Positions 81-61,205 of a DNA stretch of 64,000 nt are shown piece by piece. Numbering within the stretch: position 1 is the first letter of the stretch; each line of letters starts with the position of its first letter. The notes beneath the pieces were generated by a model, which was given only the letters and a program-made list of their open reading frames with translations, had not been told where the DNA came from and did not search any database. The translations under genes and the position numbers were made by a program. The stretch comes from Candidatus Iainarchaeum sp. (lineage in GTDB: Archaea > Iainarchaeota > Iainarchaeia > Iainarchaeales > VGJJ01), in contig JACQJG010000009.1 in the NCBI GenBank assembly GCA_016198125.1, positions 5,104 to 69,103 on the forward strand. Reading direction: 5' to 3'.

Positions 81-244
81 AAAAAAAACCGTTAGCAGTA
101 AAACGATTCAGATTAATTCGTCTGGGCAAGGTTTTTAACCCTTTGCCGCGCACCCATTCAAAAGACTCGGCAAAGGAATAAAAATACGAGACCCTTAATT
201 ATGGTGGTTTTAACCCCTTAAAGGCTTAAAAAAGAGGAGTGGCC

Positions 245-1066
245 ATGGCGCTCATGGAAGGTTTTCTGGATGGATTTAGGTGGATTCGACGCTTTCCTGT
301 TTTCCTGGCACCAGCGTTTTTTGGAGGTATTATTCAAGGAGCCCTGCTTTTATTTACCTGGGATTTTTGGCAGGATTTTGGAATCAGCTTGAGCAGCGGG
401 GCGTTTGCCCTTCCGGGAAACGCGCTTGAGGTTCCCGTGTTCTCATGGCTGGCATTTTCAGAGGTTTGGGGACCGGCCATTGGAATTTTGGGAGCAGGTT
501 TTCTGATTGAAATTGGCGTACTATTCGTGTACGCAAAAATGAGTGCCATGGTCATGCAAAAGAAAAAACCTGCGCTGGGGACTGCATTGAATGCAACCCT
601 CAGCCATTGGACAAGCGTAGTGGCCGTTGCACTTTTTTTCAGCGTAATCTTCGTATTCTTTGCATGGATTATTGCAGTACTTGCAGGCCTCAAAGGCCTA
701 TTGAACGGGATTGGAACAATACTCGCAGTTCTTGCATTCTTTGCCGCAGTCTATGTTTATGTAAGAAGCGTGTTTACGGCCCCTATTCTGGCCATGCATG
801 AAAAAGGGTTAAAGGAAGCCTTGAACACGTCTGCACGTTTTTCTTCTGGCAGGTTTTGGAGCATTGCCTTATTTTTTGGAATCCTTGCAGTGGGACTGCA
901 GGCAGTTCATGGAATTGGTGAAGTATTGGGGGACCCATTTTTGGGGGAAAACGCGCTTGCAGGCGTTCTCGTATTTGATTGGATTGGAAGAAGTTATGCA
1001 TTCACGGCGTTATGCATGTACTACTTAAATGGCGTGCGTGAAGCCAGGGCACGCAAAAGAAAATAA
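245..1066 (+). CDS. polytopic membrane protein, function unknown
   Basis: Track ORF 239..1066 begins at GTG. The in-frame ATG at 245 follows a GAGGAG Shine-Dalgarno-like box. Several helix-length hydrophobic segments and a basic RARKRK tail. No family recognised. Confidence 0.5.
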   Translation: MALMEGFLDGFRWIRRFPVFLAPAFFGGIIQGALLLFTWDFWQDFGISLSSGAFALPGNALEVPVFSWLAFSEVWGPAIGILGAGFLIEIGVLFVYAKMSAMVMQKKKPALGTALNATLSHWTSVVAVALFFSVIFVFFAWIIAVLAGLKGLLNGIGTILAVLAFFAAVYVYVRSVFTAPILAMHEKGLKEALNTSARFSSGRFWSIALFFGILAVGLQAVHGIGEVLGDPFLGENALAGVLVFDWIGRSYAFTALCMYYLNGVREARARKRK

Positions 1067-1086: not shown

Positions 1087-4068
1087 ATGATTAAAATCAG
1101 CCGGGTGCGCATGAAAAACTTCAAATCCTTCCGCCAGGCCACTGTTCCGTTTGCCCAAGGCTTTACGTGCATCGTGGGAAGCAACGCAAGCGGCAAAAGC
1201 AATGTGATGGACGCCGTTTTATTTGGTTTGGGGGTGCAGAGCCTGAAGCTTTTGCGTGCAAGCCGGTTAACAGACCTGGTCAACCACGATGCACGGGAAA
1301 ACTACGCAGTCGTAACCGTTGAATTGCAGGACGAAGAAAAAAAATACGAGGTAAGCAGAACCATTGACAAGCAGGGAAAAGGCGCATACAGGCTGAATGA
1401 AAAGCGCGTTTCCCTGCACGAAATTGATACCCTATTGGGTGAATTGGGTGTAAGAACAGACGGGCATAATTTTGTTGTTCAGGGGGACATCACGCGCATC
1501 ATCGAAATGAACCCCGTAGAACGCAGGCAGGTCATAGACGAAATTGCCGGGCTGAAAGAATTTGAAGAAAAAAAGAAGGAAGCGCTTTCAGAACTTGAAA
1601 AGGTGGACAAGAAGATAAAAGAAGTACTTATCGTGTTAAACGAACGCACGTCTTTCATTGAGGAAATGGCCAAAGACAAGGAAAATGCATTAAAGTTCAT
1701 TGCACTTGAAAAGGAACTAAAATGTGCGCACAAAACCGTTCTGCATGAAGAGATCCAGCGCATTTCAAAAGACCTGTCTGAATTCCTTTCCAAGGAACTG
1801 GAATGGATTGAAAAAAAAGACGATTCCACTGAAAAAAAACGCGGAATTGGAGAAGAAATAAGCCAATTGGAAAAAAAAGCGGAAGACCTGAATACCCAGG
1901 TTATGGCCTCAAAAGAACGCGCGTTTGAAGAGGTTGGGAAAGGAATTGAAGAACTCAAAGGACAAATCCTCCTGCAGAACGAACGCTTAACGTCTAAACG
2001 CGAACAAGCGGACCAAAACCTTGCGCGCATTCAAGAAGCATTGCAGGAACTGGGAACCAGGGAAGGCGTGCTCAAGGATAAGCGTGAAACTGAAGACCAA
2101 TTGGCCAGAGCCTTGCAGGAAGTGCTCGAACAAGGAAAGCCCTTGCGCGAAAAACGGGAAGTGCAATTGAAAACCCTGCATGCCCAGAATACCTTGGTTA
2201 AAGAACTTGAAGAACAATTAAAGCACTTGAACAATGCCCTGGACAAGCGGCGCACAACATGGTATGAAAAGCAAAGCGAGCGGGAAGCCATTGAAAAGGA
2301 AGCATCGGCGCACGCCTTGCATGCAAGCCGATTGGAAACTGAAATAAAGCGCTTAGACGAAAAATTGCGCGTGCAAAGCCCAAGCATGAAACACTTAGAA
2401 GAGCTTAAAAAAACCCACCCTTCCATTGAAAACGAATTGGATCGTGCAGTCCAAGAATGGAGCAAGAATGTCCAAGACCTTGCGCAGGCACGCAGCCGGC
2501 AGGAACTGGCGGAACTTCATTTTAAACAGCTGGCCCATGCAAAAGCCAGGTGCCCGGTCTGCACGCGCGAATTGAGTGCGCAGGTTAAAACCGGACTGGA
2601 AGCCTTGCAGTCCAAGGCTTTGGAGGAATTAAACAAGGAAACAAATGCGCTCCTGCAGGGCCTTGAAAAGGCAAAAGAAAAGGAGAGTCAATTGAACACA
2701 CTTGAACGTGAAATGCGCGCATTGGAAGAGGTTTCACGCACCGCAAAAGAATGGAAGGCCCAAAAGGACCAACGCGAACGTGAGTTGAATGAGGCGCGCG
2801 CACGAATGAACATTGGTGCACGCCGAATGGAAGCTGACAATACGTTAAAAGAATTGGAAGGCCATTTTAACGCATCCAAAAAGGAATTCCTGGAATGCGA
2901 AAACGCTTTGCGCAGAGCCCGTGAAAAGCTCCAGGGCATGAGCTCTGGAGAGGAATGGAACGCATTCATTGAACGCAAAAGCGAACTGGAGGCGCGTCTT
3001 GCACAAGCCCGCATGCACGTACAACTGATCGGACAGGAATCCAGGCAACTCGGACAGGAAATGCGTGCATTGGAAGCCGAGAACAAGGAATTGGAAGAGG
3101 AAATGCATGAAACCCGGCAAGCCCTCGCAGAAAAACAACGTGCACTCAATGAAATGGAAGGACGCTACTCCAAGGCACTGGAAGCCAACGCTGACCTGAT
3201 AAAAAAACGCGGGCAAGTCAATGAAAAAGTTCATTCTCTTCGCGAAAAAATGGAGTTGTTGGACGAAAAGGTAAAGCAGGTAGACTACCAATTGTCTGAA
3301 CTTAAAATTGAAAAGTCCAGGAACGAAACCAGGCTGTCAGACATGCAAGAGGAAATAAAGCAGTTTGAAGGAACTGAAATAAGCCTCATTGAAGGCGTGG
3401 GCGTTGTTGAACTCAGGAAACGCATTCCTTTGATTGAACGCGAAATGAAGGCATTGGGGGCCATCAATATGAAGGCACTGCAGGACTTTGGAAGGTATGA
3501 AAAAGAAGCGTTGGAAGTCAAAGAAAAGGCTAAAAAACTTGAAGAAGAACGGCTGGCGGTTTTGGACCTCATCGCAAAAATTGATGTGCAGCGGACGGAT
3601 GTATTTATGCAATGCTTCCAGGTGGTCAATGAGAACTTTAACAGGCTTTATTATTCGTTTTTTGAAGGAGAAGCCAAACTGGGGTTCACAAATCCTGAAA
3701 AACCATTGGAAGCAGGATTGCTCATTGAAGCAAAGCATTCGGGTGAAAAACTCAAGAACATTGACTCCATGTCCGGGGGGGAAAAGAGCATGACCGCGCT
3801 TGCATTTCTCTTTGCCATTCAATTGTACGAGCCTGCTCCTTTTTACATTTTTGATGAGGCCGATGCAGCACTGGACAAAAGCAATTCCCTTAAATTGGCC
3901 AACATGATCAAGGAACTTTCAAAAAACAGCCAATTTATTGCCATTACCCACAATGACTCTCTTGTAAAACAGGCAGATCAAATAGTGGGGGTAACCCTTA
4001 ATGAGCACAAGAGTTCGGTGATTGGCCTTAAACTCCAGGAGCAATTACAATCTGCAGCAGCCGCATAA
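1087..4068 (+). CDS. smc: SMC-family chromosome-associated ATPase with a central CxxC (zinc-hook-like) motif instead of a recognisable hinge
   Basis: 993 aa. N-terminal Walker A is GSNASGKSNVMDAVLFGLG followed by LRASRLTDLV (SMC type). C-terminal signature is SGGEKSMTALAFLFAIQ with Walker B FYIFDEADAALD (SMC type, not the Rad50 DEPT type). The rest is heptad-like charged coiled coil. CPVC is at nt 2551-2562, residues 489-492, the midpoint. Confidence 0.85.
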   Translation: MIKISRVRMKNFKSFRQATVPFAQGFTCIVGSNASGKSNVMDAVLFGLGVQSLKLLRASRLTDLVNHDARENYAVVTVELQDEEKKYEVSRTIDKQGKGAYRLNEKRVSLHEIDTLLGELGVRTDGHNFVVQGDITRIIEMNPVERRQVIDEIAGLKEFEEKKKEALSELEKVDKKIKEVLIVLNERTSFIEEMAKDKENALKFIALEKELKCAHKTVLHEEIQRISKDLSEFLSKELEWIEKKDDSTEKKRGIGEEISQLEKKAEDLNTQVMASKERAFEEVGKGIEELKGQILLQNERLTSKREQADQNLARIQEALQELGTREGVLKDKRETEDQLARALQEVLEQGKPLREKREVQLKTLHAQNTLVKELEEQLKHLNNALDKRRTTWYEKQSEREAIEKEASAHALHASRLETEIKRLDEKLRVQSPSMKHLEELKKTHPSIENELDRAVQEWSKNVQDLAQARSRQELAELHFKQLAHAKARCPVCTRELSAQVKTGLEALQSKALEELNKETNALLQGLEKAKEKESQLNTLEREMRALEEVSRTAKEWKAQKDQRERELNEARARMNIGARRMEADNTLKELEGHFNASKKEFLECENALRRAREKLQGMSSGEEWNAFIERKSELEARLAQARMHVQLIGQESRQLGQEMRALEAENKELEEEMHETRQALAEKQRALNEMEGRYSKALEANADLIKKRGQVNEKVHSLREKMELLDEKVKQVDYQLSELKIEKSRNETRLSDMQEEIKQFEGTEISLIEGVGVVELRKRIPLIEREMKALGAINMKALQDFGRYEKEALEVKEKAKKLEEERLAVLDLIAKIDVQRTDVFMQCFQVVNENFNRLYYSFFEGEAKLGFTNPEKPLEAGLLIEAKHSGEKLKNIDSMSGGEKSMTALAFLFAIQLYEPAPFYIFDEADAALDKSNSLKLANMIKELSKNSQFIAITHNDSLVKQADQIVGVTLNEHKSSVIGLKLQEQLQSAAAA

Positions 4069-4074
4069 GGGGTT

Positions 4075-5184
4075 TTGAAGGTGTTTGTGCACAACATGAA
4101 ATGCTTTAACTGCGATGCCGTTTACCTGCCCGTGCATTCCTATCCAAGTTGCGCGCGGTGCGGGGGCATGCTGGACTTTGAATATGATCTCAACGCCGTA
4201 CGCCGTTTTGTCCGAACGCCGGATTTTAGGTCCAAACCGGTATCCCAATGGAAGTATCTTCCATTCTATCCAATAAAAAATCCAGCACTCCTTATAACTC
4301 TTGGAGAAGGAAACACTCCCCTCATTCCTTCCATGAAAAAAAAGGAGGTTTTGTTCAAATTTGAAGGGGTTAATCCAACGGGCTCATTCAAAGACCGCGG
4401 TTCAAGCATTGAAATCACTTTTGCCAAAGAACAGGGCGTAAAGCGCGTGGTGTGCGCAAGCACAGGCAATATGGGGGCCAGCATTGCAGCGTACGCAGAG
4501 CGCGCAAAAATGCGTGCAACCATCTTTGTTCCAACATTTGCGCCCGAGCGAAAGCTCAGGGAAATAAAATCATATGGTGCCAACGTGCGCAGGGTTCACG
4601 GAAACTATGATGACGCGCTCTGCGCAAGCTATGATGCAGTGTTAAAAGCAGGAAAAGTATTCCTTACCGGAGATTACCCTTTGCGGTGCGAAGGCCAGAA
4701 AAGCGTGGCATTTGAAATTGCAGAGCAGTTGCAGTTCAGGGCCCCAAGAAACGTGGTGTGCCCCATTGGAAACGGCACGCTCTTGTACGCTCTCTTCAAG
4801 GGATTCAACGAGCTCGCCTGCGCAGGCCTTATTGGGAAGATACCCAAGCTTTTCGGAGTGCAGGCCGCGGGTTGCAATCCTGTTGAAAACGCGTGGCGCA
4901 ATAATACAGCGTGGATAACCCCGCTCAAGCGCACGCGCACCCACGCCTCGGCCATCAACTGTGGAAACCCGGTGTATGGATTGCACGCATTGAAAGCCAT
5001 TCGTTCAACCAACGGAAAATGCATTGCGTTAACGGATTCCGAGTTAAAAGCCAGCCAAAAAGCCCTTGCACGCGAAGGAATTCACGCCGAGCTTTCCGGT
5101 TCAGCCGCAAGAGGCGGGGCATTAAAACTGGGATTGAAAGGAACCACCGTGGTCATTGTGAGCGGTCACGGATTGAAGGAGTAA
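4075..5184 (+). CDS. thrC: threonine synthase
   Basis: PLP-lysine motif FEGVNPTGSFKDRGS and an N-terminal CFNC...CARC zinc ribbon. Length and order fit the PLP fold-type II family. The track start is TTG at 4075; an alternative ATG is at 4096. Confidence 0.85.
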   Translation: MKVFVHNMKCFNCDAVYLPVHSYPSCARCGGMLDFEYDLNAVRRFVRTPDFRSKPVSQWKYLPFYPIKNPALLITLGEGNTPLIPSMKKKEVLFKFEGVNPTGSFKDRGSSIEITFAKEQGVKRVVCASTGNMGASIAAYAERAKMRATIFVPTFAPERKLREIKSYGANVRRVHGNYDDALCASYDAVLKAGKVFLTGDYPLRCEGQKSVAFEIAEQLQFRAPRNVVCPIGNGTLLYALFKGFNELACAGLIGKIPKLFGVQAAGCNPVENAWRNNTAWITPLKRTRTHASAINCGNPVYGLHALKAIRSTNGKCIALTDSELKASQKALAREGIHAELSGSAARGGALKLGLKGTTVVIVSGHGLKE

Positions 5185-5300: not shown

Positions 5301-5633
5301 ATGGCCGAGTACAGGGTACTGAAAACAGGGGAGTTTGATGAATCCTTTTATCGTTTGAATTCCATTGCACGAAAAAGGATTGGACGTTTTTTAGACCAAT
5401 TGCAGGACAAGGGGGGAATGGTTGGAAAACCGTTGAGCGTTCCATTCATACGGGAAAAGAAATTCAACGGAAACCGGCTTTATTTTCTTGTCTATGTAGA
5501 ACTTAAGGCAGTCCTAGTCGTTGGAATTAGCACAAAGAAAGCTCAAAGCGTGGTTATTGCAGGAGTTAAGGCAAAACTGGGAGAATACAGAGAAATGGTT
5601 TTGCACATGCTACAAGAAAACCCTTATTTGTAG
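5301..5633 (+). CDS. RelE/ParE-like protein (putative toxin), copy 1
   Basis: 110 aa. The pattern YRV...F...RL...FL.QL...GKPL...REKKFNGNRLYFLVY resembles archaeal RelE-fold mRNA interferases. About 50 percent identical by eye to the 110-aa ORF at 11797..12129. Confidence 0.5.
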   Translation: MAEYRVLKTGEFDESFYRLNSIARKRIGRFLDQLQDKGGMVGKPLSVPFIREKKFNGNRLYFLVYVELKAVLVVGISTKKAQSVVIAGVKAKLGEYREMVLHMLQENPYL

Positions 5634-5806: not shown

Positions 5807-8137
5807 TCAGGCCCCGGGTTTTGGTAAAATCTTTTTCTTGGCAGTCCCTTTGGCCTTCCATTTGGGTTTTGATTCGCCAGTTCCAACAGGCTTGGGTTTT
5901 GCCTCGTTTGCCGCTGGAGCATGCGACCGTCCTGCCTGTACGGCCCGCATGCGTTTCCGGTATTCCCTGGATTCCATTTCCATGCGCGATTTGGCGTTTT
6001 CGAACTCTTCTTTAGATAAAAGGCCTTGGGCCTGTTGTTCTTCCAAGTGACGCACAGCCACCCGATTGGCAAACACGCGTGCTTCCAGCGTATCCAGTTC
6101 CACCAGGCGCGCAGACTTGGATGAACTGCTTTTATCGCCGCCGGATGCTGGGCGTGCTGAAGCAGCGCTCTTGCGCTGTATCAAAGTAAGACCCACTACC
6201 AGCACGATCAATAAGAGGATCAACCCCAGGAGTCCCATGAAGAGCATTTGCTGCAAGGTGAACCCGGGTATGGGTTCCACTTTTATTTGAACGCCATTTG
6301 TAAAAGGCTGTGTCCCATTAACCGTTAAGGGTGTTTTCTTGTAAGCATCGATTGAATCATAATACGCATAAATGTCTTCGGTCACGCGGAACGTATTTTC
6401 TGCCAGGTATGCAAGCAAAAGGCCGTTGTGCAGGAAGCCAGACGCAGAGGTTCCCTTGTTCTTGGAGTGGTAGAATTCCGCGGATTTAAGAAAGTACCGC
6501 GCATGATCCAGGTAAAGGTTGGCCCATGCAAATTCATGCCTGGAAGCGCTCATGTCCTGTGAAAGGGTCTGAATTTTTTCGCTCAATTCCATTAAAAGGG
6601 TTTCATAGTCCTTGTCCTGGCCTGCAATTGTTCCATTTACGAGGCCCAGCGCGGAGGCAGCATCCATGGAGGCCGCCAAGTGCCATTTATGTGCTTGTTC
6701 AAGCTTGCTGGCATCAAGTCTCCGCACAATATCCTCTGAATCTTCCTGGGAGATGACAGTCAAACCGTTTTCCACGTTCACTTGAAAATCCCCAAAATAG
6801 TCTTTGAAGGATTCATCCGGTTTTACTTGGTTGGCAGAAGTTTGCAGGCCGATTTCATAAAAGTCTTTGGCTGCTTCAAACCATGCGCGCGCGAACTCGT
6901 ATTCACGCAGCCGGCCAATGATTTCATTGTACGCTGCATTGGGGTCTCCTTCAATGTCCACTTGAATGACCTGGTTTTCGGTCAACTTCTTAACGTTCAA
7001 TTCTGCCCACGTCAAACGCTGCTGGGCTGCAATGTACCATTCAATTCCTTCCAATGGGACCGCATTATCAAGCACGCGTTTGAATGATTGTATTTCCTTA
7101 TTCAAACTGGAGATGTTGAGTGAAAAGAATGTTGAACCCTGGTTCAAAAGCGACGGGTTTTCTGAAAGGTCTTTTACCAGGTACGCGTTGACCTTGGCAA
7201 GGAAAATAGAATTCCCTGCAGAATAATAAAAATTGTTGGCGGTTAACAGTTCTGCTTCCTGAAGGGTTTTCTCTGAACTATTGAGGCTGTCCAGCAGCAC
7301 GTTTATGAGGCCCGGGTCCTCCAACAGCGTGGTGGAAAGCGAGTTGCGTGCCTCATTAACGATTTGGGTTGCAGAAGCAAGCAGCCGCTTGTTTAACTCG
7401 CCCAGCGCCTGGGCTTTGGGTTTCACTTCAACTTTTTCGGGAATGTACGTTTCCAGTTCAGGTTCCACGGCTTCATTGATGTCGATTTGCCCAATGTCTT
7501 TGAATGCAAGTTCAAGGACTTGGTCAAGGTCGTGCACTTCCACTACTTTCATGCCCCACGTCTGCAGTGCATATTCCGGCAGCAGCACGGTTTTTACGCC
7601 TTCAGGCAGTTTAACGACCTGCTTGGCTTCGCCTTTTGGGATCATGAATAATTTAATTCCTTTGCCTGCGGCTTCCTTGGACTTTTCAAACACGCCTCCA
7701 ACGGCTCCAACCGTTCCATCGTCGCTGATGGTGCCTGTCAGTGCAACGTTTTTTGGAAAGGGTTTATCCTGGAGCATGGTGACTGCAAGTGCGGTCATGG
7801 CTGCTCCGGCCGAAGGGCCTTCCACCACAGACGCATTGGATTTAATGGTGAAAAAATAATCATAACCCCCGGTGTCCACGTAATTGCTTGCCACTTTGAT
7901 GGCCACGCGCTCTGCGTTTTGGGTAGTGGTTCCAACCAAAGGAGTAATGGCACTCCAAATGTTTCCACTTCCTGGTTTTATCTGGAGTATGAGTTCTGCT
8001 TCCAGCGCTTCTCCTTCTGTGGTGACTGCATATACCTTCATGGAACCTTCTGAGAGTACTGCAAGCACAGGCGTGGCAAACGAAGATAGGAAAAGAACAG
8101 TCAAAAACAATGCAGGCCAGGTTCCAGCGCGCGACAT
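5807..8137 (-). CDS. membrane-anchored Lon-like (S16) serine peptidase without an ATPase module
   Basis: N-terminal signal/anchor helix, then a Lon proteolytic-domain signature. The catalytic Ser context is VEGPSAGAAM and the Lys context is GGVFEKSKEAAGKG. No Walker motifs. A long helical middle region is followed by a C-terminal TM helix (LFMGLLGLILLLIVLVVGLTLI) and a Lys-rich tail with a SHOCT-like GLLSKEEFENAKSRM. Confidence 0.7.
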   Translation of the reverse strand: MSRAGTWPALFLTVLFLSSFATPVLAVLSEGSMKVYAVTTEGEALEAELILQIKPGSGNIWSAITPLVGTTTQNAERVAIKVASNYVDTGGYDYFFTIKSNASVVEGPSAGAAMTALAVTMLQDKPFPKNVALTGTISDDGTVGAVGGVFEKSKEAAGKGIKLFMIPKGEAKQVVKLPEGVKTVLLPEYALQTWGMKVVEVHDLDQVLELAFKDIGQIDINEAVEPELETYIPEKVEVKPKAQALGELNKRLLASATQIVNEARNSLSTTLLEDPGLINVLLDSLNSSEKTLQEAELLTANNFYYSAGNSIFLAKVNAYLVKDLSENPSLLNQGSTFFSLNISSLNKEIQSFKRVLDNAVPLEGIEWYIAAQQRLTWAELNVKKLTENQVIQVDIEGDPNAAYNEIIGRLREYEFARAWFEAAKDFYEIGLQTSANQVKPDESFKDYFGDFQVNVENGLTVISQEDSEDIVRRLDASKLEQAHKWHLAASMDAASALGLVNGTIAGQDKDYETLLMELSEKIQTLSQDMSASRHEFAWANLYLDHARYFLKSAEFYHSKNKGTSASGFLHNGLLLAYLAENTFRVTEDIYAYYDSIDAYKKTPLTVNGTQPFTNGVQIKVEPIPGFTLQQMLFMGLLGLILLLIVLVVGLTLIQRKSAASARPASGGDKSSSSKSARLVELDTLEARVFANRVAVRHLEEQQAQGLLSKEEFENAKSRMEMESREYRKRMRAVQAGRSHAPAANEAKPKPVGTGESKPKWKAKGTAKKKILPKPGA

Positions 8138-11374: not shown

Positions 11375-11656
11375 ATGTCACGCTCAAAGTGTTCCTTAAA
11401 AAAAAGTCTTAAACTCGGAAGAGTGGCGGACAGTTATAAGAAAGGCAAGGCCTCGATTGACAAGGCGGCCAAAGTGGCTGGTTTAACTGTCAGCGAGATG
11501 ATGGAAACGGTGGCAGCCCGTGGTATGAAATCCGATGAAACCGTTGAGGATTACCGGCAAGGCGTCAGGGCCCTTCTAAAAAAATCAACTCCAAGCGCTT
11601 TTTCCCGCCGTTCTTGCAGTTTTAGGCAAAACAGATTTAAACAGGTTGACGGATGA
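11375..11656 (+). CDS. UPF0175-family small HTH-like protein
   Basis: KKGKASIDKAAKVAGLTVSEMMETVAARGM matches the UPF0175 pattern (G.IS.G.AAE.AG.S..EF...L...G). A TATA-like ATATATAAAA lies about 25 nt upstream. The C-terminal 25 residues may be read-through. Confidence 0.55.
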   Translation: MSRSKCSLKKSLKLGRVADSYKKGKASIDKAAKVAGLTVSEMMETVAARGMKSDETVEDYRQGVRALLKKSTPSAFSRRSCSFRQNRFKQVDG

Positions 11657-11663
11657 TCATATC

Positions 11664-11804
11664 ATGAAAACGGTAACGGTATCCAAACACGAGGCAATAA
11701 AGAAGGGCCTGCTCGAAAAAGACGAATTATTCATTGAATTAATGAAAGGATTGGAAGACATCCGGCTCGGTCGCGTTTCAGAATGGAAACCAAAGCCTAG
11801 ATAA
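11664..11804 (+). CDS. 46-aa conserved small protein convergent with the RelE-like gene, copy 2
   Basis: Translation is MKTVTVSKHEAIKKGLLEKDELFIELMKGLEDIRLGRVSEWKPKPR. It is the same length as copy 1 and shares its MKT..T..K start and LED...GR.SEWKP end. A TATA-like GATTTAAACAGG lies about 28 nt upstream. It overlaps the partner gene by 8 nt. Confidence 0.45.
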   Translation: MKTVTVSKHEAIKKGLLEKDELFIELMKGLEDIRLGRVSEWKPKPR

Positions 11805-12129
11805 GGTTCAATTTTTTTAGAATGCTTTGCATAAAGTCCTTGTAATGTCCCAGTTTCATTCTTATCTCTTGAATCGTGGAAGCCTGTTCTTTTTTATTGC
11901 TGATATTAATTATCATCACAGATTTCCATTCCTCATAAACCAAATAATACACCCGCTTGCCATTGAATTTTTTCTCGCGAAAAAAATGAACCCCCAAAGG
12001 CTTTCCAACCATGCCAGGCTTTTCAGTTAGTTGATTCAAAAACCGTTCAACCCGCGCTTTTTCAAAAACGGTTAACCTGACAAACTTTTCATCAAATTGA
12101 ACATTCTTGAAAACCCGGTAGGCATTCAT
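11797..12129 (-). CDS. RelE/ParE-like protein (putative toxin), copy 2
   Basis: 110 aa, MNAYRVFKNVQFDEKF...GKPLGVHFFREKKFNGKRVYYLVYEE. Paralog of 5301..5633. Confidence 0.5.
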   Translation of the reverse strand: MNAYRVFKNVQFDEKFVRLTVFEKARVERFLNQLTEKPGMVGKPLGVHFFREKKFNGKRVYYLVYEEWKSVMIINISNKKEQASTIQEIRMKLGHYKDFMQSILKKLNLI

Positions 12130-24818: not shown

Positions 24819-25916
24819 ATGCTTAAACTGTTGTCTAAACGGGTATTCTTTTTGCTGATTCTGGCATTCCTTATTGCACTCACCCGCATTGAAGCCTTGG
24901 TGGCCCTTATCGTATTTGTCATGTCTGCCACGCTGGTTTTTACCATTGTTCCATTTCTTGCCCACCGCATGAAACTTAGGGGTATTGTGGGAAAAGACAT
25001 GAACAAGTTCCACAAACCGGAAGTGCCAGAAATGGGGGGCATTGCAGTCATGCTGGGGTTTTTCGCAAGCGTTATTCTTGCACTCGTTTATTACGCGTAC
25101 CTCCACTTTTTTCCCGGATTGAATCTCACTGCGTTGCTTGCAGGCCTTCTCACTATTACCTTGGTGGGTTTTTTGGGCGTATTGGATGACCTGGTGGGAT
25201 GGAAGCAGGGCATCCGGCAATGGCAGCATGCCATCGTACCTGTTTTTGCAGCGCTCCCCTTGATGGCATTGCCTGAGGCGGTTGGATTCACTTCCATCAG
25301 CGTGCCTTTTTTTGGAGCGGTTCAACTGGGAATACTGTATTCTCTTGTCCTTGTGCCCATCGGCATTACTGGGGCCAGCAATGCGTCCAACATGCTTGCA
25401 GGATTTAATGGATTGGAAGCCGGCATGGGGCTTATTAATGCGTTGACTGTTTTGGCTGTTGCGTTCATTCTTGGAGAAATGGAAGCGGTTATTCTCATGG
25501 CTGGCCTGGCAGGGGCATTGGCTGCTTTTTTGTGGTTCAACTGGTATCCTGCAAAGATATTTCCAGGGGATTCACTAACGCTTATGACTGGGGCAGGAAT
25601 TGCGGCTGCAGTCATCATTGGCAACATGGAAAAAATTGGCATCATGCTGTTTGCCCTGTATTTTGTTGAGTTTGCATTCAAGGCCAAGCACAAATTCCAA
25701 AGCGAGTGTTTTGGTATTCCCCAAGCAGATGGAACCCTTAAAGCAAGCCCAAAAGGGGGAAGTGTAACCCACTGGATTATGAAACATGGAAAATTCACTG
25801 AGCCCCAGGTAACAGGCATCATTTTGACTGTGCAGGGAATTATCGCATTGATTGTATTTGTGTTATTCCTGCAGGGGTATCAGCTGGGCGTAAGCCAGGG
25901 GTTTGTGAAAGTATGA
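24819..25916 (+). CDS. aglH: polyprenyl-phosphate HexNAc-1-phosphate transferase (GPT/MraY/WecA family; AglH/Alg7-like)
   Basis: Polytopic protein with VLDDLVGWK, NASNMLAGFNGLEAG and IFPGDSLTL motifs characteristic of the family. Confidence 0.85.
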   Translation: MLKLLSKRVFFLLILAFLIALTRIEALVALIVFVMSATLVFTIVPFLAHRMKLRGIVGKDMNKFHKPEVPEMGGIAVMLGFFASVILALVYYAYLHFFPGLNLTALLAGLLTITLVGFLGVLDDLVGWKQGIRQWQHAIVPVFAALPLMALPEAVGFTSISVPFFGAVQLGILYSLVLVPIGITGASNASNMLAGFNGLEAGMGLINALTVLAVAFILGEMEAVILMAGLAGALAAFLWFNWYPAKIFPGDSLTLMTGAGIAAAVIIGNMEKIGIMLFALYFVEFAFKAKHKFQSECFGIPQADGTLKASPKGGSVTHWIMKHGKFTEPQVTGIILTVQGIIALIVFVLFLQGYQLGVSQGFVKV

Positions 25917-26359
25917 AGGTGTGCATTGCGGCTTCCGCAGGCGGGCATTTGACTGAAGTCTTGCAGGTGCATGAGGCATGGAAGAACGTGGACCATTTTT
26001 TTGTTTCGGATAAAAGGGAAAATGCCGTTGAATTGGCGAAAAAGGAAAAGGTATTCTTTGTCGCGTGCCCGCGGAGAAATCCTTTGCATTTGGCCCAAAG
26101 TTTTATGCAATCGTTCAAGCTTTTCGTTGTCCAAAAACCCGATGTAGTTATTTCCACGGGCGCAGACACTGCCATTTCTACGTGCCTTATTGCCAAACTG
26201 TTTGGAAAAAAAGTCATTTTCATTGAAAGCTATGCACGCATTTCAAGTCCAAGTCTTTCGGGCAAAATCATGTATCCATTGGCGGACCTTTTTCTTGTGC
26301 AATGGAAGCAGAACCTTTCCTTTTTTCCAAAAGCAATTTTTGCAGGGAGCGTGTTCTAA
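25913..26359 (+). CDS. Alg14-like membrane-associating subunit of a split GT28-type glycosyltransferase (PssD/Cps14F family)
   Basis: Contains MKVCIAASAGGHLTEVLQV...VVISTGADTA...IFIESYARISSPSLSGK. The start overlaps the aglH stop. Confidence 0.8.
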   Translation: MKVCIAASAGGHLTEVLQVHEAWKNVDHFFVSDKRENAVELAKKEKVFFVACPRRNPLHLAQSFMQSFKLFVVQKPDVVISTGADTAISTCLIAKLFGKKVIFIESYARISSPSLSGKIMYPLADLFLVQWKQNLSFFPKAIFAGSVF

Positions 26360-26851
26360 TTGAATATTTTTGTTGCAGCTGGAACCCACCCCCAGCCTTT
26401 TGACAGGCTATTCAGGGCATTGGACGAATTGAAAGCAAAAGGCGGTTTGAAGGACGAAGTGTTTGCCCAGACCGGTCATTCAGCGTATGTGCCGAAGAGC
26501 TTTGAAAGCAAATCTCTTTTGGACTTGAACGAGTTCAACAGGCGCTTTGCATGGGCCGACCTTGTAATCACCCATGGAGGCGCTGGAAGCATCTTGACTG
26601 CCTTTGAAGCAGGAAAAAAAGTCATGGTAGTTCCACGCCAAAAAAAATTCAACGAACATACGAACGACCATCAACTCGAACTTGCACGCGTCCTCGCAGT
26701 AGAAGGAAAGGCCTTGGAAGTCGTTGACATCAAAGACCTTGAAAAGACCATTGAAAAGGCGCGCACGTTCAAGCCGGACCTGCAAACGTCCAAGCAGGGC
26801 CTTGTCAAAGCAATTCGCGAAAAGTTAAAGGAATGGGAACGGAAAAAATGA
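26360..26851 (+). CDS. Alg13-like catalytic subunit of a split GT28-type glycosyltransferase (PssE/Cps14G family)
   Basis: Contains NIFVAAGTHPQPFDRL...ADLVITHGGAGSILTAFEAGKKVMVVPR...NDHQLELA. The TTG start directly abuts the Alg14-like stop. Confidence 0.8.
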   Translation: MNIFVAAGTHPQPFDRLFRALDELKAKGGLKDEVFAQTGHSAYVPKSFESKSLLDLNEFNRRFAWADLVITHGGAGSILTAFEAGKKVMVVPRQKKFNEHTNDHQLELARVLAVEGKALEVVDIKDLEKTIEKARTFKPDLQTSKQGLVKAIREKLKEWERKK

Positions 26852-33525: not shown

Positions 33526-33580
33526 TGCGCGTGCCAGAATTGTTAAACCGTAACAGGCGTGGTTTTCAAAGGGATTGGGC

Positions 33581-35053
33581 ATGAAAGTATTGTTTTTGAA
33601 TCCGCCGTTTTTGCCGCGTTATTCCAGGCAAAGCCGCAGTCCATGTGTTACAAAGAGCAACACCCTGTATTACCCATATTATTTGGCGTACGCCGCTGGA
33701 TGGACGGAAAAGCACGGTTTTAACGTAAAGCTCGCAGATGCGGTGGCCAATGAATGGTCGCGCACAGAAACAGTTGAGTTTGTTAAAAGGGAAAAGCCAG
33801 AACTTACAGTCATGGACACTTCTACTCCAAGCATTGTAAACGATGTTCAAGTGGCCGAGGCCATCAAAAAGGAAGTGCCTGAAACAAAAATAATGTTGGC
33901 TGGAACGTTTCCCACCAACATGAGTGAGTACACGCTGAACATGAGCAAGGCCGTTGACTCTGTTGCTGTTGGAGAGTATGATAACACTGCATTGTTTTTG
34001 GCCCGGGCATTGGAAGACCACAAGCCTTTAGAGGAAGTTCCGGGCATTGCCTTCAAACGCGAAGACAAACTGGTAAAGGGACCGCCTGCAAAATTATTGG
34101 AAAACCTGGACGAGTTGCCGTGGGCCTCGCAGATTTACTTGAAACACTTTGGCAGGAAAGGAATTGAAAAATACTTTTATGCAAGCACCACGTGGCCTGA
34201 GATGATGATTTTGACTGCAAGGGGTTGTCCCTGGAATTGCACGTTTTGCAATATTCCCATGAAAAAATCGTACAGGCCACGAAGCACGCAGAATGTAATT
34301 GAAGAAATGCAGTTCATTCAAAGTGAAATGCCCTGGGTGAATGAAATCATGTTCGAAGATGACACGTTTGCCGCTGTACGTAAACGCACGCTTGAATTGT
34401 GCGATGCATTCATTCAAAACAGGATCCAGTTGAAGTGGAGCTGCAATGGACGCGTTACAACAGAAAACGAAGTGCTTCAAAAAATGAAGGCTGCCGGGTG
34501 CAGGCTCGTTTGCGTGGGCTTTGAAAGCGCTACGCAGGAAGTGTTGAACAACATTGAAAAAATGGTTCCCTTGCGCCGGCAGTTTGAGTTCATGGAAGAC
34601 GCGCGCAAAACCGGGCTGAAAATCAATGGGTGCTTTATCTTCGGCTTGCCCGGAGACACGCCTGAGACCATGAAGAAGACCATTGAGATGGCCAAAGAGT
34701 TAAACCCAAACAGCGCGCAATTTTATCCTTTAATGGTGTACCCTGGAAACGAAGCATACCGCTGGGCCCAACGCAATGGCCTGTTGGCCACGGAAGACTA
34801 TTCCAAATGGGTAACCCCGGAAGGACTGCATACTACAACCGTTTCAAGGCCTGGCTTGCCGGCTGATGAAGTGGTCAGGTGGTGCAACCGCGCACGGCTG
34901 GAGTTTTACACGAATCCAAAGTTCTTAAAGAAAATGGCCGTGCAGGCTGCCGCCAATCCTGTTGAAGCCGTGCGCATGGCCAAAGCGTCCAAAGTGCTGT
35001 TCAAACACCTGGCGGATTATGCCACGCGCAAAGACGCCGTTGCAAAAGGATAA
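33581..35053 (+). CDS. cobalamin(B12)-binding-domain radical SAM enzyme (paralog 1, NPP-type N-terminus)
   Basis: MKVLFLNPPFLPRYSRQSRSP N-terminal domain, radical SAM cluster motif TARGCPWNCTFCN, and VGFESATQEVLNNIEK. The track start at 33575 is TTG; the ATG is at 33581. Confidence 0.85.
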   Translation: MKVLFLNPPFLPRYSRQSRSPCVTKSNTLYYPYYLAYAAGWTEKHGFNVKLADAVANEWSRTETVEFVKREKPELTVMDTSTPSIVNDVQVAEAIKKEVPETKIMLAGTFPTNMSEYTLNMSKAVDSVAVGEYDNTALFLARALEDHKPLEEVPGIAFKREDKLVKGPPAKLLENLDELPWASQIYLKHFGRKGIEKYFYASTTWPEMMILTARGCPWNCTFCNIPMKKSYRPRSTQNVIEEMQFIQSEMPWVNEIMFEDDTFAAVRKRTLELCDAFIQNRIQLKWSCNGRVTTENEVLQKMKAAGCRLVCVGFESATQEVLNNIEKMVPLRRQFEFMEDARKTGLKINGCFIFGLPGDTPETMKKTIEMAKELNPNSAQFYPLMVYPGNEAYRWAQRNGLLATEDYSKWVTPEGLHTTTVSRPGLPADEVVRWCNRARLEFYTNPKFLKKMAVQAAANPVEAVRMAKASKVLFKHLADYATRKDAVAKG

Positions 35054-43707: not shown

Positions 43708-43753
43708 TTCCTGTAAACCCCCTTTATATATAGGATTAGTTAACCCGTGGGTG

Positions 43754-43784
43754 CATTTAAAAGTATAGGTTTTTGGTACAAAAG
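43754..43784 (-). promoter_or_regulatory. CTTTTGTACCAAAAA near-palindrome plus TATA-like box (CTTTTAAATG) upstream of the minus-strand rSAM operon
   Basis: Read on the minus strand, the motif is at 43784-43770, followed 6 nt later by the TATA at 43763-43754. The ATG is at 43707. This is the same order as at 62671-62700. Confidence 0.45.
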
Positions 43785-43884
43785 AACCTGGAAGACTGTT
43801 TTTCAATGAGCTCGAACCAATAAAATTAATAAAGCGTGGGGAATCGTTTTAATCCATTAAAAGCGGTTTTTCAGAAGGGCTGGC

Positions 43885-45321: not shown

Positions 45322-46288
45322 ATGAACCCACGGCTGGTTTTGACTCGAGCACTCCCTGTACCGCCCAAAAGTAGCCCGCCAACACGATTACATAAACGGC
45401 CAGCCGTGACACAACGGCAACCGCAGCCGCCACAGGGGTTGGATATCCCAGAAATCCATACAAGAAGACCATGGCCGCCTCGCGCGCTCCAATGCCTGCG
45501 GGAAGCTGTGTAATTCCCCCAACAAACGCAATAGCCGCATTCACTGCAAAAATGAATCCAAAGGGAACGTCCACGCCATACGAAAGGAAAAAAAAGTAGG
45601 TGGAAAGAACTCCCACCACCCAGTTCAACAGTGTAAAGAAAATGACAGGGTACATGGAAGAATGTGAAATCATGGTTTTCCAGTCCGCGCGCACGGCATG
45701 TACCATCTTAAAACCTTTTGAAATCAAGCGGTGAAAAAAGCCTGTGCGCATATCACTCCCCGATTGAAGGCGCTGAAACCAGTGTTCCGGAAAAAGAAAG
45801 AATACAAGCACTGCAATGAGCGCGAATGCCATGAAAATGAAAAAGTTGTACGTCGAATCATATGGCAGTCCTTGGAGGAAAAAGAACAGGCTGAGCAGCG
45901 TGAAAAACAGCACGGTTCCTGTGTCCAATGCAAACTCAAATGACGAGACAGACAGTCCTTCTGTTTTTCCTGACCCTGTAACTTTGGAGAGTGCAAGGGC
46001 TTTCACTGGAATGTTTGCGCGTGAAGGCGCAAAGTGCGTGACAAATTTGTCTATGAATTGGATGCGCAGGCGCATCCAAAACCCCTGCACACGGTTGAAC
46101 GGTTTCAATAAATATTTCAGGCGCCAGGACAGTACAACAAAATTGAATAGGACAAATACAATTCCAAGAGCCAATAAAAAAGGGTTTTTTACGCGTACAA
46201 TTATGGAAAGGTCAATTCCTGCAGTCAAGATGAAGAGCGCGAACAACGCGATTCCAATGGCATAGGAAAGCAAAACGCGTTTTTTCAA
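45305..46288 (-). CDS. flippase-like membrane protein (UPF0104 / lysyl-PG-synthase TM-region family)
   Basis: Eight or so TM helices. The N-terminus MKKRVLLSYAIGIALFALFILTAGIDLS... and overall pattern are typical of this family, which is often linked to GT2 genes. Confidence 0.6.
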   Translation of the reverse strand: MKKRVLLSYAIGIALFALFILTAGIDLSIIVRVKNPFLLALGIVFVLFNFVVLSWRLKYLLKPFNRVQGFWMRLRIQFIDKFVTHFAPSRANIPVKALALSKVTGSGKTEGLSVSSFEFALDTGTVLFFTLLSLFFFLQGLPYDSTYNFFIFMAFALIAVLVFFLFPEHWFQRLQSGSDMRTGFFHRLISKGFKMVHAVRADWKTMISHSSMYPVIFFTLLNWVVGVLSTYFFFLSYGVDVPFGFIFAVNAAIAFVGGITQLPAGIGAREAAMVFLYGFLGYPTPVAAAVAVVSRLAVYVIVLAGYFWAVQGVLESKPAVGSFKRWP

Positions 46289-47958: not shown

Positions 47959-48000
47959 AGTATGATAGTTTTGGCGTGCGAACTTAAAAAATGAAATGGT

Positions 48001-61153: not shown

Positions 61154-61205
61154 TGGTCTTTGTTAAAAGTATTAAAACGCGTTTTACGTGCAGAAGGTCG
61201 TATTC

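What the first reader, a model, noticed from the sequence alone, without database searches (positions are those of the whole stretch)
1087..4068. SMC-type ATPase whose hinge appears replaced by a Rad50-like CPVC zinc hook
Both head halves are SMC-like rather than Rad50-like. The evidence is GSNASGKSNVMDAVLFGLG...LRASRLTDLV, SGGEKSMTALAFLFAIQ and FYIFDEADAALD.

However, the 993-aa protein has no recognisable globular hinge (~150 aa, Gly-rich). The coiled coil is continuous, and exactly at its midpoint (residues 489-492, nt 2551-2562) sits AKARCPVCTRELS. This closely resembles the archaeal Rad50 hook CPVCGRELT.

No mre11 and no scpA/scpB kleisin genes are adjacent; the next gene is thrC.

An SMC head with zinc-hook dimerisation would be a hybrid architecture between condensin-like and Rad50-like complexes.
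Basis: partly seen in the sequence, partly recalled or inferred. Interest (0 to 1): 0.65.

Follow-up and report, generated by a model that had tools for sequence, protein, structure and literature searches.

The report
Natural SMC with a zinc hook
This archaeal chromosome-organising SMC ATPase has lost its usual globular hinge and instead carries a Rad50-type Cys-Pro-x-Cys zinc hook at the tip of its arms, a natural version of a chimera so far only built in the laboratory.

Summary
ORF 1087-4068 encodes a 993-aa protein with SMC-type heads: TIGR02169 scores 546 bits against 130 for Rad50, and a Pyrococcus Smc head matches at 3e-99. It has two ~300-330-aa arm helices and no hinge.

CPVC (aa 489-492) sits in a 14-residue loop at the apex. 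More than 95 of about 113 homolog clusters carry the motif, nearly all named ones from DPANN Iainarchaeota/Diapherotrites. In the 82-sequence alignment both Cys are invariant, and at least 21 homologs have no other cysteine.

The apex family profile hits the P. furiosus Rad50 hook at E=2.8e-15. The apex model's only two significant PDB fold matches are the two chains of that hook (1L8D).

Aligned hinge-bearing SMCs show a ~165-aa hinge block replaced by a ~40-aa hook module, with arm length kept. The gene sits at a conserved core-genome locus shared with a hinge-bearing SMC. An ortholog's 1.19-Mb contig also encodes the kleisin ScpA.

Best reading: the lineage's Smc-ScpA condensin, dimerised by zinc. 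Zinc binding, ring formation and function are inferred. I found no published description. Novelty: new variant of a known kind.

The parts
1087..4068 (+). Hook-SMC gene, 993 aa plus stop codon
   Evidence: ORF. SMC_N 1.4e-61. TIGR02169 545.7 bits. More than 110 homolog clusters.
1087..1551 (+). N-terminal half of the ABC ATPase head (aa 1-155). Walker A GSNASGKSN is at nt 1177-1203 and Q-loop Q132 lies within this stretch.
   Evidence: Invariant G31, N33, G36, K37, N39 and Q132. AF2 pLDDT about 90. Pyrococcus Smc head 4i99_A TM 0.87, rmsd 2.6 A.
1552..2535 (+). N-terminal arm helix (aa 156-483)
   Evidence: DSSP helices H156-349, 351-360, 365-443 and 447-483. BLAST collinear with hinge-SMC arms up to about aa 467.
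2161..2175 (+). Helix break in the N arm (aa 359-363). It pairs with the break at aa 616-622, each about 128 residues from the CPVC. Elbow-like.
   Evidence: Segments with pLDDT below 50 and DSSP breaks. The elbow reading is an inference.
2416..2715 (+). Rad50-hook-like apex module (aa 444-543)
   Evidence: Family profile against P. furiosus Rad50 hook 1l8d_A: E=2.8e-15, 59.8 bits over 100 aa. Controls. Fragment model pLDDT 95.2. Foldseek 1l8d_B TM 0.72-0.79 and 6zff_B TM 0.81.
2536..2577 (+). Apex loop (aa 484-497) between the two arm helices
   Evidence: DSSP non-helical stretch 484-497.
2551..2562 (+). CPVC (aa 489-492), the putative zinc-coordinating pair
   Evidence: C489 and C492 invariant, P490 at least 90% conserved. 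PF04423 match at aa 480-498.
2578..3471 (+). C-terminal arm helix (aa 498 to about 795), including the break at aa 616-622 (nt 2932-2952) and a low-confidence joint region at aa 761-786
   Evidence: DSSP and pLDDT. TIGR02169 stretch aa 505-983 paired with profile 678-1165.
3472..4065 (+). C-terminal half of the head (aa 796-993). Signature SGGE is at nt 3772-3783, Walker B/D-loop FYIFDEADAALD at nt 3841-3876, and H-loop H955 lies within this stretch.
   Evidence: Invariant S896-E899, D923, E924, D926-D930 and H955. PDB 5xei_A matches aa 739-987.
239..1066 (+). Upstream 275-aa membrane-protein gene, 20 nt from the SMC start. Its position is conserved (context, not part of the machine).
   Evidence: Weak GPDPase_memb match. 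A gene of the same size and position is in L001, L003, L172 and L173. Sequence similarity is not detectable by tblastn.
4075..5184 (+). Downstream PALP (threonine-synthase-like) gene. It serves as a synteny marker shared with a hinge-bearing SMC locus.
   Evidence: PF00291 2.4e-65. 36% identical over its full length to the PALP gene beside hinge-SMC P0115 in L006.
5807..8137 (-). Lon_C-domain membrane protease. It is a conserved neighbour, followed by the P1-L10-L1-L11-Spt5-SecE-FtsZ cluster.
   Evidence: 48% identical to the neighbour of P0040. Same gene order in L003 and L172.

Best explanation
**What it is.** This is the lineage's chromosomal SMC, a condensin-type Smc that partners with the kleisin ScpA. 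Its globular hinge dimerisation domain has been replaced by a short Rad50-type zinc-hook module.

**How it most likely works.**
1. Each polypeptide folds back on itself, so the N- and C-terminal halves form one SMC-type ABC ATPase head.
2. Two helices of roughly 300-330 residues form an antiparallel coiled-coil arm of canonical SMC length.
3. The arm ends in a 14-residue loop that presents Cys489 and Cys492.
4. Two protomers are proposed to share one Zn2+ ion, coordinated by four cysteines, which gives a constitutive apex dimer.
5. ATP engages the two heads and ScpA bridges them. This closes an SMC-kleisin ring or rod that entraps and translocates on chromosomal DNA.

**Shown here (computationally).** The heads are SMC-type. 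The ATPase motifs are intact. The hinge is absent. The CPxC is invariant. The apex resembles the Rad50 hook in both sequence and predicted fold. The arms keep canonical length. The gene shares its position with a hinge-bearing SMC. ScpA lies on the same contig as one ortholog.

**Inferred.** Zinc binding, homodimerisation, ScpA binding, loop extrusion or segregation, and origin of the module by recombination with an archaeal rad50.
For: **Heads are SMC.**
- TIGR02169 scores 545.7 bits against 129.9 for Rad50.
- PDB Smc head 5xei matches at 3.3e-99 against 1.3e-17 for Rad50.
- Foldseek: 4i99_A TM 0.87, rmsd 2.6 A.
- All ATPase motifs are invariant.

**Hinge is absent.** The F159-to-G791 span is 633 aa here and 773-813 aa in hinge-bearing SMCs. 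The difference is about one hinge, so arm length is preserved.

**Hook.**
- CPxC is invariant in 82 sequences.
- 27 of 29 apex fragments hit PF04423.
- The apex profile hits the P. furiosus Rad50 hook at 2.8e-15. The score drops to 28.8 bits when CPVC is masked and to 17-25 bits when the flanks are shuffled. None of 82 hinge-bearing SMCs is hit.
- The fragment model has pLDDT 95. Its only PDB fold matches with E<=1e-3 are the two chains of 1L8D. Its best TM-score, 0.81, is to the Rad50 rod form 6ZFF.

**Housekeeping ortholog.**
- The locus L44e - membrane protein - SMC - Lon_C - P1 - L10 - L1 - L11 - Spt5 - SecE - FtsZ is conserved at about 40% protein identity.
- A hinge-bearing SMC (P0115) sits between Lon_C and a homologous PALP gene, with the P1 gene (Ribosomal_60s) further along the contig.

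**Kleisin.** Contig Ga0209514_10000002 (1,194,739 bp) carries hook-SMC P0040. It also carries a full-length ScpA: PF02616 54.9 bits against a cut-off of 24.6, and local HMM 3e-61.

**Feasibility.** B. subtilis Smc with the P. furiosus Rad50 hook in place of its hinge supports normal growth (PMC5344682). Hook and hinge are also interchangeable in fission-yeast Rad50 (PMC6969161).
Against: - No metal binding, dimer or complex was modelled or measured. Both structure predictions are monomers.
- ScpA was shown for one ortholog's contig, not for this window's genome. It is absent from the 64-kb window.
- No ScpB was found within 10 kb of that ScpA.
- I could not exclude a second, hinge-bearing SMC elsewhere in these genomes.
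- The query's own PF04423 score is below Pfam's cut-off: 15.1 bits for the full protein and 18.5 for the apex fragment, against 24.3.
- About 14 orthologs have deleted the whole apex, including the CPxC. The hook is therefore not indispensable in every lineage.
- The NJ tree is a rough distance tree.
Confidence: 0.78

Rival explanations
1. It is an accessory SMC paralog with a new role, for example DNA-end or sister-chromatid tethering through intermolecular hook contacts as in Rad50. A canonical hinge-bearing Smc elsewhere in the genome would do the housekeeping.
For: - MAGs labelled 'Ca. ainarchaeum sp.' include one with a hinge-bearing SMC (P0120) and one with a hook-SMC (L007).
- Whole genomes could not be surveyed.
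- Rad50 hooks are reported to link complexes.
Against: - The hook-SMC occupies a core-genome locus whose Lon_C, PALP and P1 neighbours are shared with a hinge-bearing SMC.
- The hook, short-arm and hookless forms all sit in that one locus.
- None of the listed hinge-bearing SMCs lies on a contig that carries a hook-SMC.
- All hingeless forms make one clade separate from the hinge-bearing SMCs.
Confidence: 0.1
2. It is functionally a Rad50 replacement. The SMC-headed, hook-bearing ATPase would work in double-strand-break repair with a nuclease rather than with a kleisin.
For: - The apex is Rad50-like.
- No kleisin is adjacent.
- A HerA/DUF87-like ATPase gene lies 7-8 kb upstream in two ortholog loci.
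Against: - The heads are clearly SMC and not Rad50.
- No Mre11 or NurA is found in the window or in any of six ortholog loci.
- ScpA is present on the P0040 contig.
- The arms keep SMC length, and low-confidence segments sit where the SMC joint would be.
Confidence: 0.05
3. It is an SMC-like component of a mobile defence system (Lamassu LmuB, Wadjet or MADS type), or a member of the archaea-specific SMC-related proteins (ASRP/ClsN). Both groups can carry zinc hooks.
For: - PADLOC hits: mad3 203.7 bits and LmuB 78.7 bits.
- ASRP model 85.7 bits.
- ASRPs and many LmuB proteins have CxxC hooks (PMC9389158; PMC10586767).
Against: - These scores are far below the SMC model's 545.7 bits, and the ASRP cut-off is 300.
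- The protein is about 1000 aa with full-length arms.
- Its position next to ribosomal-protein and ftsZ genes is conserved across relatives only about 40% identical.
- No nuclease or other effector genes are adjacent.
Confidence: 0.02
4. The CPxC is conserved for another reason, such as a redox disulfide or a structural turn, and does not mediate zinc-dependent dimerisation. The two protomers would be held together along the arms and heads only.
For: - Orthologs that deleted the whole apex still persist.
- A hinge-less SMC clade without CXXC has been reported in marine Actinobacteria (PMC12153180).
- No dimer or metal was modelled.
Against: - The similarity to the Rad50 hook extends about 45 residues on each side of the Cys pair.
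- The hydrophobic positions conserved in this family align with hydrophobic residues of the P. furiosus Rad50 hook: L482, the V/I residue within CPxC, and L496 four residues after the second Cys.
- The predicted fold superposes on 1L8D and 6ZFF.
Confidence: 0.05

Closest known systems
Prokaryotic Smc of the Smc-ScpAB condensin (TIGR02169 SMC_prok_A; Pyrococcus Smc, PDB 5XEI, 4I99, 5XNS)
   Same: - Head sequence and predicted fold, and all ATPase motifs.
- Arm length, with low-confidence breaks where the joint and elbow would be.
- Genomic position shared with a hinge-bearing SMC.
- ScpA encoded on the same contig as one ortholog.
   Different: - There is no hinge domain. PF06470 is absent and about 165 aa are replaced by a hook module of about 40 aa.
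- The score therefore falls below the NCBIfam equivalog cut-off (545.7 against 729.4).
- scpA is not adjacent to the gene, and ScpB was not found.
Rad50/SbcC zinc hook (PF04423; P. furiosus Rad50 hook, PDB 1L8D and 6ZFF)
   Same: - CPxC lies in a loop at the tip of an antiparallel coiled coil.
- The flanking sequence is similar: family consensus ieeLkkakakCPvCeseL against Pf IEELKKAKGKCPVCGRELT.
- Profile E=2.8e-15. TM 0.72-0.81.
   Different: - The heads are not Rad50 (130 bits against a cut-off of 700).
- No Mre11 is nearby.
- The arms align with SMC arms.
Engineered B. subtilis Smc(Zh) chimera (Burmann et al. 2017, PMC5344682)
   Same: The design is the same: SMC heads and arms with the hinge exchanged for an archaeal Rad50 zinc hook. 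The chimera supported normal growth.
   Different: That protein is a laboratory construct. This one is a naturally evolved gene family of more than 95 sequence clusters maintained in a DPANN phylum.
Archaea-specific SMC-related proteins (ASRP: ClsN/coalescin, Sph1/2; PMC9389158)
   Same: They are archaeal coiled-coil ABC ATPases with a CxxC hook, implicated in chromosome organisation.
   Different: ASRPs are a separate, shorter family. The NF045487 profile is 593 positions long, and the query scores 85.7 bits against a cut-off of 300. Here the heads are bona fide SMC.
'Hinge-less' SMC clade of marine Actinobacteria (Sussfeld et al. 2025, PMC12153180)
   Same: SMC-type heads and arms without a hinge domain.
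   Different: That clade is bacterial and explicitly lacks the CXXC motif. It resembles the hookless ~925-aa orthologs noted here, not the hook-bearing form.

Membership tests
SMC (prokaryotic Smc, TIGR02169/PF02463) | Split ABC ATPase head with Walker A, Q-loop, LSGGE signature, Walker B, D-loop and H-loop | tested here: met
   PF02463 at 1.4e-61. K37, Q132, S896-E899, D923/E924, D926-D930 and H955 are invariant.
SMC (prokaryotic Smc, TIGR02169/PF02463) | Head closer to SMC than to Rad50, RecN or MukB | tested here: met
   545.7 bits for SMC against 129.9 for Rad50, 52.6 for RecN and 11.6 for MukB. PDB Smc 3.3e-99 against Rad50 1.3e-17. Foldseek result.
SMC (prokaryotic Smc, TIGR02169/PF02463) | Two long arm helices forming an intramolecular antiparallel coiled coil of about 300 or more residues per strand | tested here: met
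   AF2 helices 156-483 and 498 to about 795. Arm lengths of 330 and 299 aa match hinge-bearing SMCs once their hinge is subtracted.
SMC (prokaryotic Smc, TIGR02169/PF02463) | Globular hinge dimerisation domain (PF06470) | tested here: not met
   No PF06470 hit at E<=10. The hinge block of P0114, P0115, P0116 and P0120 aligns to a gap. None of the roughly 113 family members has a precomputed PF06470 hit.
SMC (prokaryotic Smc, TIGR02169/PF02463) | NCBIfam equivalog score cut-off | tested here: not met
   545.7 bits against a cut-off of 729.4. The shortfall fits the missing hinge.
SMC (prokaryotic Smc, TIGR02169/PF02463) | Kleisin partner (ScpA) encoded in the genome | tested here: inconclusive
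   Met for ortholog P0040, where ScpA is on the same 1.19-Mb contig. Not found in this 64-kb window. The rest of this genome is not available.
SMC (prokaryotic Smc, TIGR02169/PF02463) | KITE partner (ScpB) | tested here: inconclusive
   None within 10 kb of the P0040-contig ScpA. A scpA-scpB operon exists in one MAG labelled Diapherotrites, whose SMC type is unknown.
Rad50/SbcC | CxxC zinc hook at the coiled-coil apex (PF04423) | tested here: met
   At family level, 27 of 29 fragments hit PF04423, best 1.3e-6. Profile against 1L8D at 2.8e-15. Fold match. The query alone is below the Pfam cut-off: 18.5 bits against 24.3.
Rad50/SbcC | Rad50-type head (NCBIfam Rad50 equivalogs) | tested here: not met
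   Best Rad50 model scores 129.9 bits against a cut-off of 700.
Rad50/SbcC | Mre11/SbcD nuclease partner, usually adjacent | tested here: not met
   No Mre11-type phosphoesterase in the window or in ortholog loci L001, L003, L172 and L173. Genome-wide presence is not testable here.
Rad50/SbcC | Zn2+ coordinated by four Cys from two chains | not testable with these tools
   Only monomer predictions without metal were possible.
ASRP / ClsN (NF045487) | Model score above the cut-off | tested here: not met
   85.7 bits against a cut-off of 300.
Lamassu LmuB / MADS mad3 defence ATPases (PADLOC) | Best match to a defence model and defence-island context with effector genes | tested here: not met
   mad3 scores 203.7 and LmuB 78.7 bits, well below the SMC model's 545.7. 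The gene is embedded in a conserved cluster of ribosomal-protein genes and ftsZ.

The most novel reading that the evidence does not exclude
The hook module, CPxC plus about 45 coil residues on each side, was captured from an archaeal rad50 by recombination into smc in an ancestor of Iainarchaeota. That would make a natural SMC-Rad50 chimera which took over as the only condensin.

Several descendant lineages then deleted even the hook and still keep the gene at the same locus. If both steps are true, nature has twice shown that the hinge, long proposed as a DNA gate or DNA-binding site, is dispensable for SMC-kleisin function. It would also show that covalent-like apex dimerisation may itself be dispensable.
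Probability: 0.4. Interest if true: 0.82.

Novelty: new variant of a known kind. Interest (0 to 1): 0.7.

Why it matters
**The textbook split.** SMC proteins are said to have a hinge and a kleisin partner. Rad50 proteins have a zinc hook and Mre11 (review PMC10586767).

**The open question.** Whether the SMC hinge does more than hold two arms together is long debated. Proposed extra roles are a DNA entry gate, DNA binding and control of loading. The only direct test has been an engineered B. subtilis Smc with a P. furiosus Rad50 hook (PMC5344682).

**What this family adds.**
- A whole archaeal phylum appears to have run that experiment and kept the result. This gives a natural hinge-free SMC-ScpA system for biochemistry and structure work.
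- The family has discrete arm-length classes, about 330/297 and about 220/200 residues. These bear on the 'tuned arm' idea from the same paper.
- Hookless derivatives exist that ask how such dimers hold together at all.

**A practical point.** Current annotation pipelines call these proteins 'AAA family ATPase', 'hypothetical protein' or plain 'SMC'.

Tried and rejected
1. **Kleisin search, Aenigmarchaeota seed.** I took ScpA from locus L005 as the query and then ran a 1.84-billion-representative HMM search. Both returned only close Aenigmarchaeota-like relatives. Naming 10 outlying representatives gave one label, Micrarchaeota. That protein served as the seed for the search that finally worked.
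2. **Genome-contig scan with the family alignment.** Only one hook locus (L007) was returned, so the scan could not test whether hinge- and hook-type SMCs co-occur in one genome.
3. **Contig-length fingerprints.** One coincidence linked ScpA hits to hook-SMC contigs: 5196 bp for both P0019 and P0479, but from different sources. I judged it chance and did not pursue it.
4. **Upstream membrane-protein gene.** tblastn found no homolog in other loci. Its conservation rests only on size, position and weak Pfam hits.
5. **ScpB.** Looked for with phmmer and a 3-sequence HMM in the window and in L111. Nothing was found.
6. **Rejected readings.** Rad50 ortholog, ASRP/ClsN, arcadin-4 (49 bits against a cut-off of 860), and Lamassu or MADS defence ATPase.
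7. **Literature.** Searches for a natural hook-bearing SMC found none. The nearest report is a hookless, hinge-less bacterial clade. The library lacks most subscription-journal papers, so prior description cannot be excluded.


Full report
**1. Observation**

The window is archaeal. It encodes ribosomal proteins P1, L10/P0, L1, L11 and L21e, plus Spt5, SecE, FtsZ, TBP, Rpo4 and AglB.

ORF 1087..4068 (+) encodes 993 aa. CPVC is at aa 489-492, which is nt 2551-2562.

- Pfam gives SMC_N at 1.4e-61 spanning aa 4-975. There is no SMC_hinge hit even at E<=10. The Rad50_zn_hook match at aa 480-498 is sub-threshold (15.1 bits, cut-off 24.3).
- NCBIfam ranks SMC_prok_A first with 545.7 bits. This is below its 729.4 cut-off. 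The match comes in two stretches, and the second pairs aa 505-983 with profile positions 678-1165, so the hinge part of that profile has no counterpart. The best Rad50 model reaches 129.9 bits, ASRP 85.7 and arcadin-4 49.
- Among PDB sequences, the Pyrococcus Smc head 5XEI matches at 3.3e-99 and Rad50 at 1.3e-17.
- The next gene downstream is a PALP-family, threonine-synthase-like enzyme.
- No ScpA, ScpB, Mre11 or Rad50 is present in the 64 kb.

**2. A conserved family, not a one-off**

The protein database returned about 113 hingeless homolog clusters (90% identity clusters) ranked above the first hinge-bearing SMC.

- They are 31-43% identical to the query and mostly 985-1040 aa.
- Where a source names them, the labels are Diapherotrites, Iainarchaeum, 'archaeon' and, once, Micrarchaeota.
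- None has a precomputed hinge hit. Several have a precomputed PF04423 hit.
- CP[VITL]C sits at the centre of nearly all of them. At least 21 contain exactly two cysteines, both in the motif.

In an 82-sequence alignment C489 and C492 are invariant, and P490 and L482 are at least 90% conserved. The only other invariant residues in the roughly 600-aa coil are E222 and E288. All ATPase motifs are invariant.

The family motif reads L-x-K-x-x-[SA]-x-C-P-[VIT]-C-[ED]-x-x-L-x4-K.

**3. What replaced what**

I aligned the query and other hook forms with the nearest hinge-bearing SMCs (P0114, P0115, P0116 and P0120).

- The ~165-aa hinge block of the hinge-bearing proteins faces a gap.
- BLAST collinearity with SMC arms runs over aa 2-467 and 509-983. 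That leaves a module of about 40 aa around the CPVC.
- Between conserved anchors F159 and G791 the query has 633 residues. Hinge-bearing SMCs have 773-813. The arms therefore keep canonical length.

**4. Structure predictions**

*Full-length AF2 model* (82-sequence alignment, mean pLDDT 80.2):
- The head is confident.
- Helices run over aa 156-483 and 498 to about 795.
- A non-helical loop at aa 484-497 carries the CPVC.
- Matched helix breaks lie about 128 residues on each side of the motif, which looks like an elbow.
- Low-confidence segments sit where the SMC joint would be.

Foldseek against the PDB puts condensin Smc4 and Pyrococcus Smc heads first (4I99_A TM 0.87, rmsd 2.6 A). Rad50 first appears at rank 16.

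*Apex model, aa 436-548* (pLDDT 95.2): Foldseek finds only two PDB chains with E<=1e-3. They are the two chains of the P. furiosus Rad50 zinc hook 1L8D (TM 0.72-0.79, rmsd 2.7 A). The Rad50 rod form 6ZFF_B gives the highest TM-score, 0.81.

**5. The apex is Rad50-like beyond the two cysteines**

- 27 of 29 family apex fragments hit PF04423 at E<=0.01. The best is 1.3e-6 and the query's own fragment scores 0.0018.
- A profile of the apex, searched against all PDB sequences, finds P. furiosus Rad50 hook constructs at 2.8e-15 and 7.9e-15 over 100 residues, and human RAD50 at 1.6e-3. The next unrelated hit is at 3e-4.
- Controls: masking CPVC leaves 28.8 of 59 bits. Keeping the core but shuffling the flanks leaves 17-25 bits. 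None of 82 hinge-bearing SMCs is hit at all.

The simplest reading is that the module derives from an archaeal Rad50 hook. That origin is an inference.

**6. Ortholog or paralog, and housekeeping or mobile**

The gene order around the hook-SMC is conserved in genomes whose SMCs are only about 40% identical. The order is L44e - membrane protein - SMC - Lon_C protease - P1 - L10 - L1 - L11 - Spt5 - SecE - FtsZ. It is seen in the window, in L003/L004, and in part in L001, L172 and L173.

A hinge-bearing SMC from an unclassified archaeon (P0115) lies between a Lon_C gene and a PALP gene. That PALP gene is 36% identical over its full length to the window's, and the P1 gene (Ribosomal_60s) lies further along the contig.

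A rough NJ tree of head columns puts all hingeless forms in one clade apart from the hinge-bearing SMCs.

PADLOC defence models score far below the SMC model: mad3 203.7 bits and LmuB 78.7 bits.

Together this argues for in-place replacement of the hinge in the lineage's own SMC. It argues against a mobile or accessory SMC-like gene.

**7. Partner**

In many archaea scpA directly follows smc. This is not so in the Micrarchaeota or Iainarchaeota loci I fetched.

ScpA genes do exist in MAGs labelled Diapherotrites and Iainarchaeum. A metagenome scan with an ScpA alignment returned locus L111 on contig Ga0209514_10000002 (1,194,739 bp). That is the same contig that carries hook-SMC P0040.

The ORF at L111:9938-10690 is a full-length ScpA. 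It scores 3e-61 against the local HMM and 54.9 bits for PF02616 against a cut-off of 24.6. No ScpB lies within 10 kb of it.

At least one hook-SMC genome therefore encodes a kleisin. This favours a condensin-like Smc-ScpA complex.

**8. Mechanism**

Two protomers are proposed to share one Zn2+ through their CPxC pairs. ATP engages the SMC heads and ScpA bridges them.

The design is known to be workable:
- B. subtilis Smc with the P. furiosus Rad50 hook in place of its hinge grows normally. The authors concluded that the fold of the dimerisation domain is irrelevant for chromosome segregation in B. subtilis (PMC5344682).
- Hook and hinge are also interchangeable in fission-yeast Rad50 (PMC6969161).

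Zinc binding, dimerisation, ScpA binding and DNA transactions are all inferred here.

**9. Comparison and novelty**

A 2023 review assigns hinges and kleisins to SMC, and hooks and Mre11 to Rad50 (PMC10586767).

- Hook-bearing ASRP/ClsN proteins are a separate family (PMC9389158; NF045487 is not met).
- A 2021 survey placed DPANN SMCs among canonical archaeal SMCs. The word 'hook' does not occur in its text (PMC8665677).
- A 2025 paper reports a hinge-less SMC clade in marine Actinobacteria that explicitly lacks CXXC (PMC12153180).
- Eight literature searches found no description of a natural hook-bearing SMC. The library is incomplete.

I rate the finding a new variant of a known kind.

**10. 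Variants inside the family**

- Short-arm hook forms of 772-812 aa have arms of about 220 and 200 residues. They occupy the same locus.
- About 14 hookless, hingeless forms of roughly 905-950 aa have deleted about 70 apex residues. The one whose locus I looked up (P0057) lies in the same locus. They are scattered over the NJ tree.
- Some forms carry inteins inserted right after the Walker A lysine.

**Verdict**

Interest is 0.70.

Noticed in passing
Orthologs P0025, P0043, P0050, P0053, P0057, P0060, P0068, P0076, P0080, P0086, P0104, P0105, P0106 and P0112; locus L172:8001-10787: About 14 orthologs, typically ~925 aa, have neither hinge nor hook. Roughly 70 apex residues, including the CPxC, are deleted. 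P0057 sits in the same membrane protein - SMC - Lon_C - P1 - L10 - L1 locus. These forms are scattered at five or more places in the head tree, which suggests repeated loss. How such proteins dimerise is unexplained.
   Followed up: partly
Orthologs P0018, P0020, P0021, P0023, P0027, P0044, P0066, P0085-P0090 and P0107; locus L173:8001-10319: There is a discrete short-arm class of hook-SMCs of 772-812 aa. Their arms are about 215-235 and 190-210 residues, instead of about 330 and 297. The shortening is symmetrical on both strands and the gene is in the same locus.
   Followed up: partly
Orthologs P0060, P0078 (archaeon GW2011_AR10), P0081, P0092 and P0096; equivalent to window aa K37/S38 (nt 1195-1200): Inteins of about 190 or about 550 aa (the longer ones with a LAGLIDADG endonuclease) are inserted directly after the Walker A lysine (GK|S) of the hook-SMC in several genomes.
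   Followed up: partly
window 5301-5633 (+) and 11797-12129 (-), with 11375-11656 (+): Two 110-aa ORFs with no Pfam match are 50% identical paralogs. The second lies next to a UPF0175-family gene. They may be toxin-antitoxin-like modules, one of them inserted between thrC and the Lon_C gene.
   Followed up: partly
window 33575-35053, 42214-43806 (-), 43885-45321, 61188-62666 and 62735-64000: Five B12-binding radical SAM genes are spread through a large island of about 32 kb that is rich in glycosyltransferase and methyltransferase genes. Several large ORFs in it have no Pfam match: 46285-48132 (-), 48606-50216 and 59557-61119.
   Followed up: no
window 55314-57458 and 57455-59560 (+): Two overlapping tandem paralogs of about 700 aa each fuse an ADH_zinc_N dehydrogenase part to a GFO_IDH_MocA oxidoreductase part.
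   Followed up: no
window 25913-26359 and 26360-26851 (+): Adjacent Alg14-like and Glyco_tran_28_C (Alg13-like) genes follow a GT4 gene and AglB/STT3. This is a eukaryote-like split glycosyltransferase pair within an N-glycosylation cluster.
   Followed up: no
L111:10736-11181 (contig Ga0209514_10000002): The ScpA gene of the P0040 genome is followed by small HicB-like and HicA-like ORFs. ScpB follows ScpA directly in L087, a MAG labelled Diapherotrites. In both loci a KaiC-like ATPase gene lies upstream on the opposite strand.
   Followed up: partly
L001:1-3111 and L003:1-2145: A DUF87/HerA-like ATPase gene of about 1000 aa lies 7-8 kb upstream of the hook-SMC in two ortholog genomes. No Mre11 or NurA gene accompanies it.
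   Followed up: no
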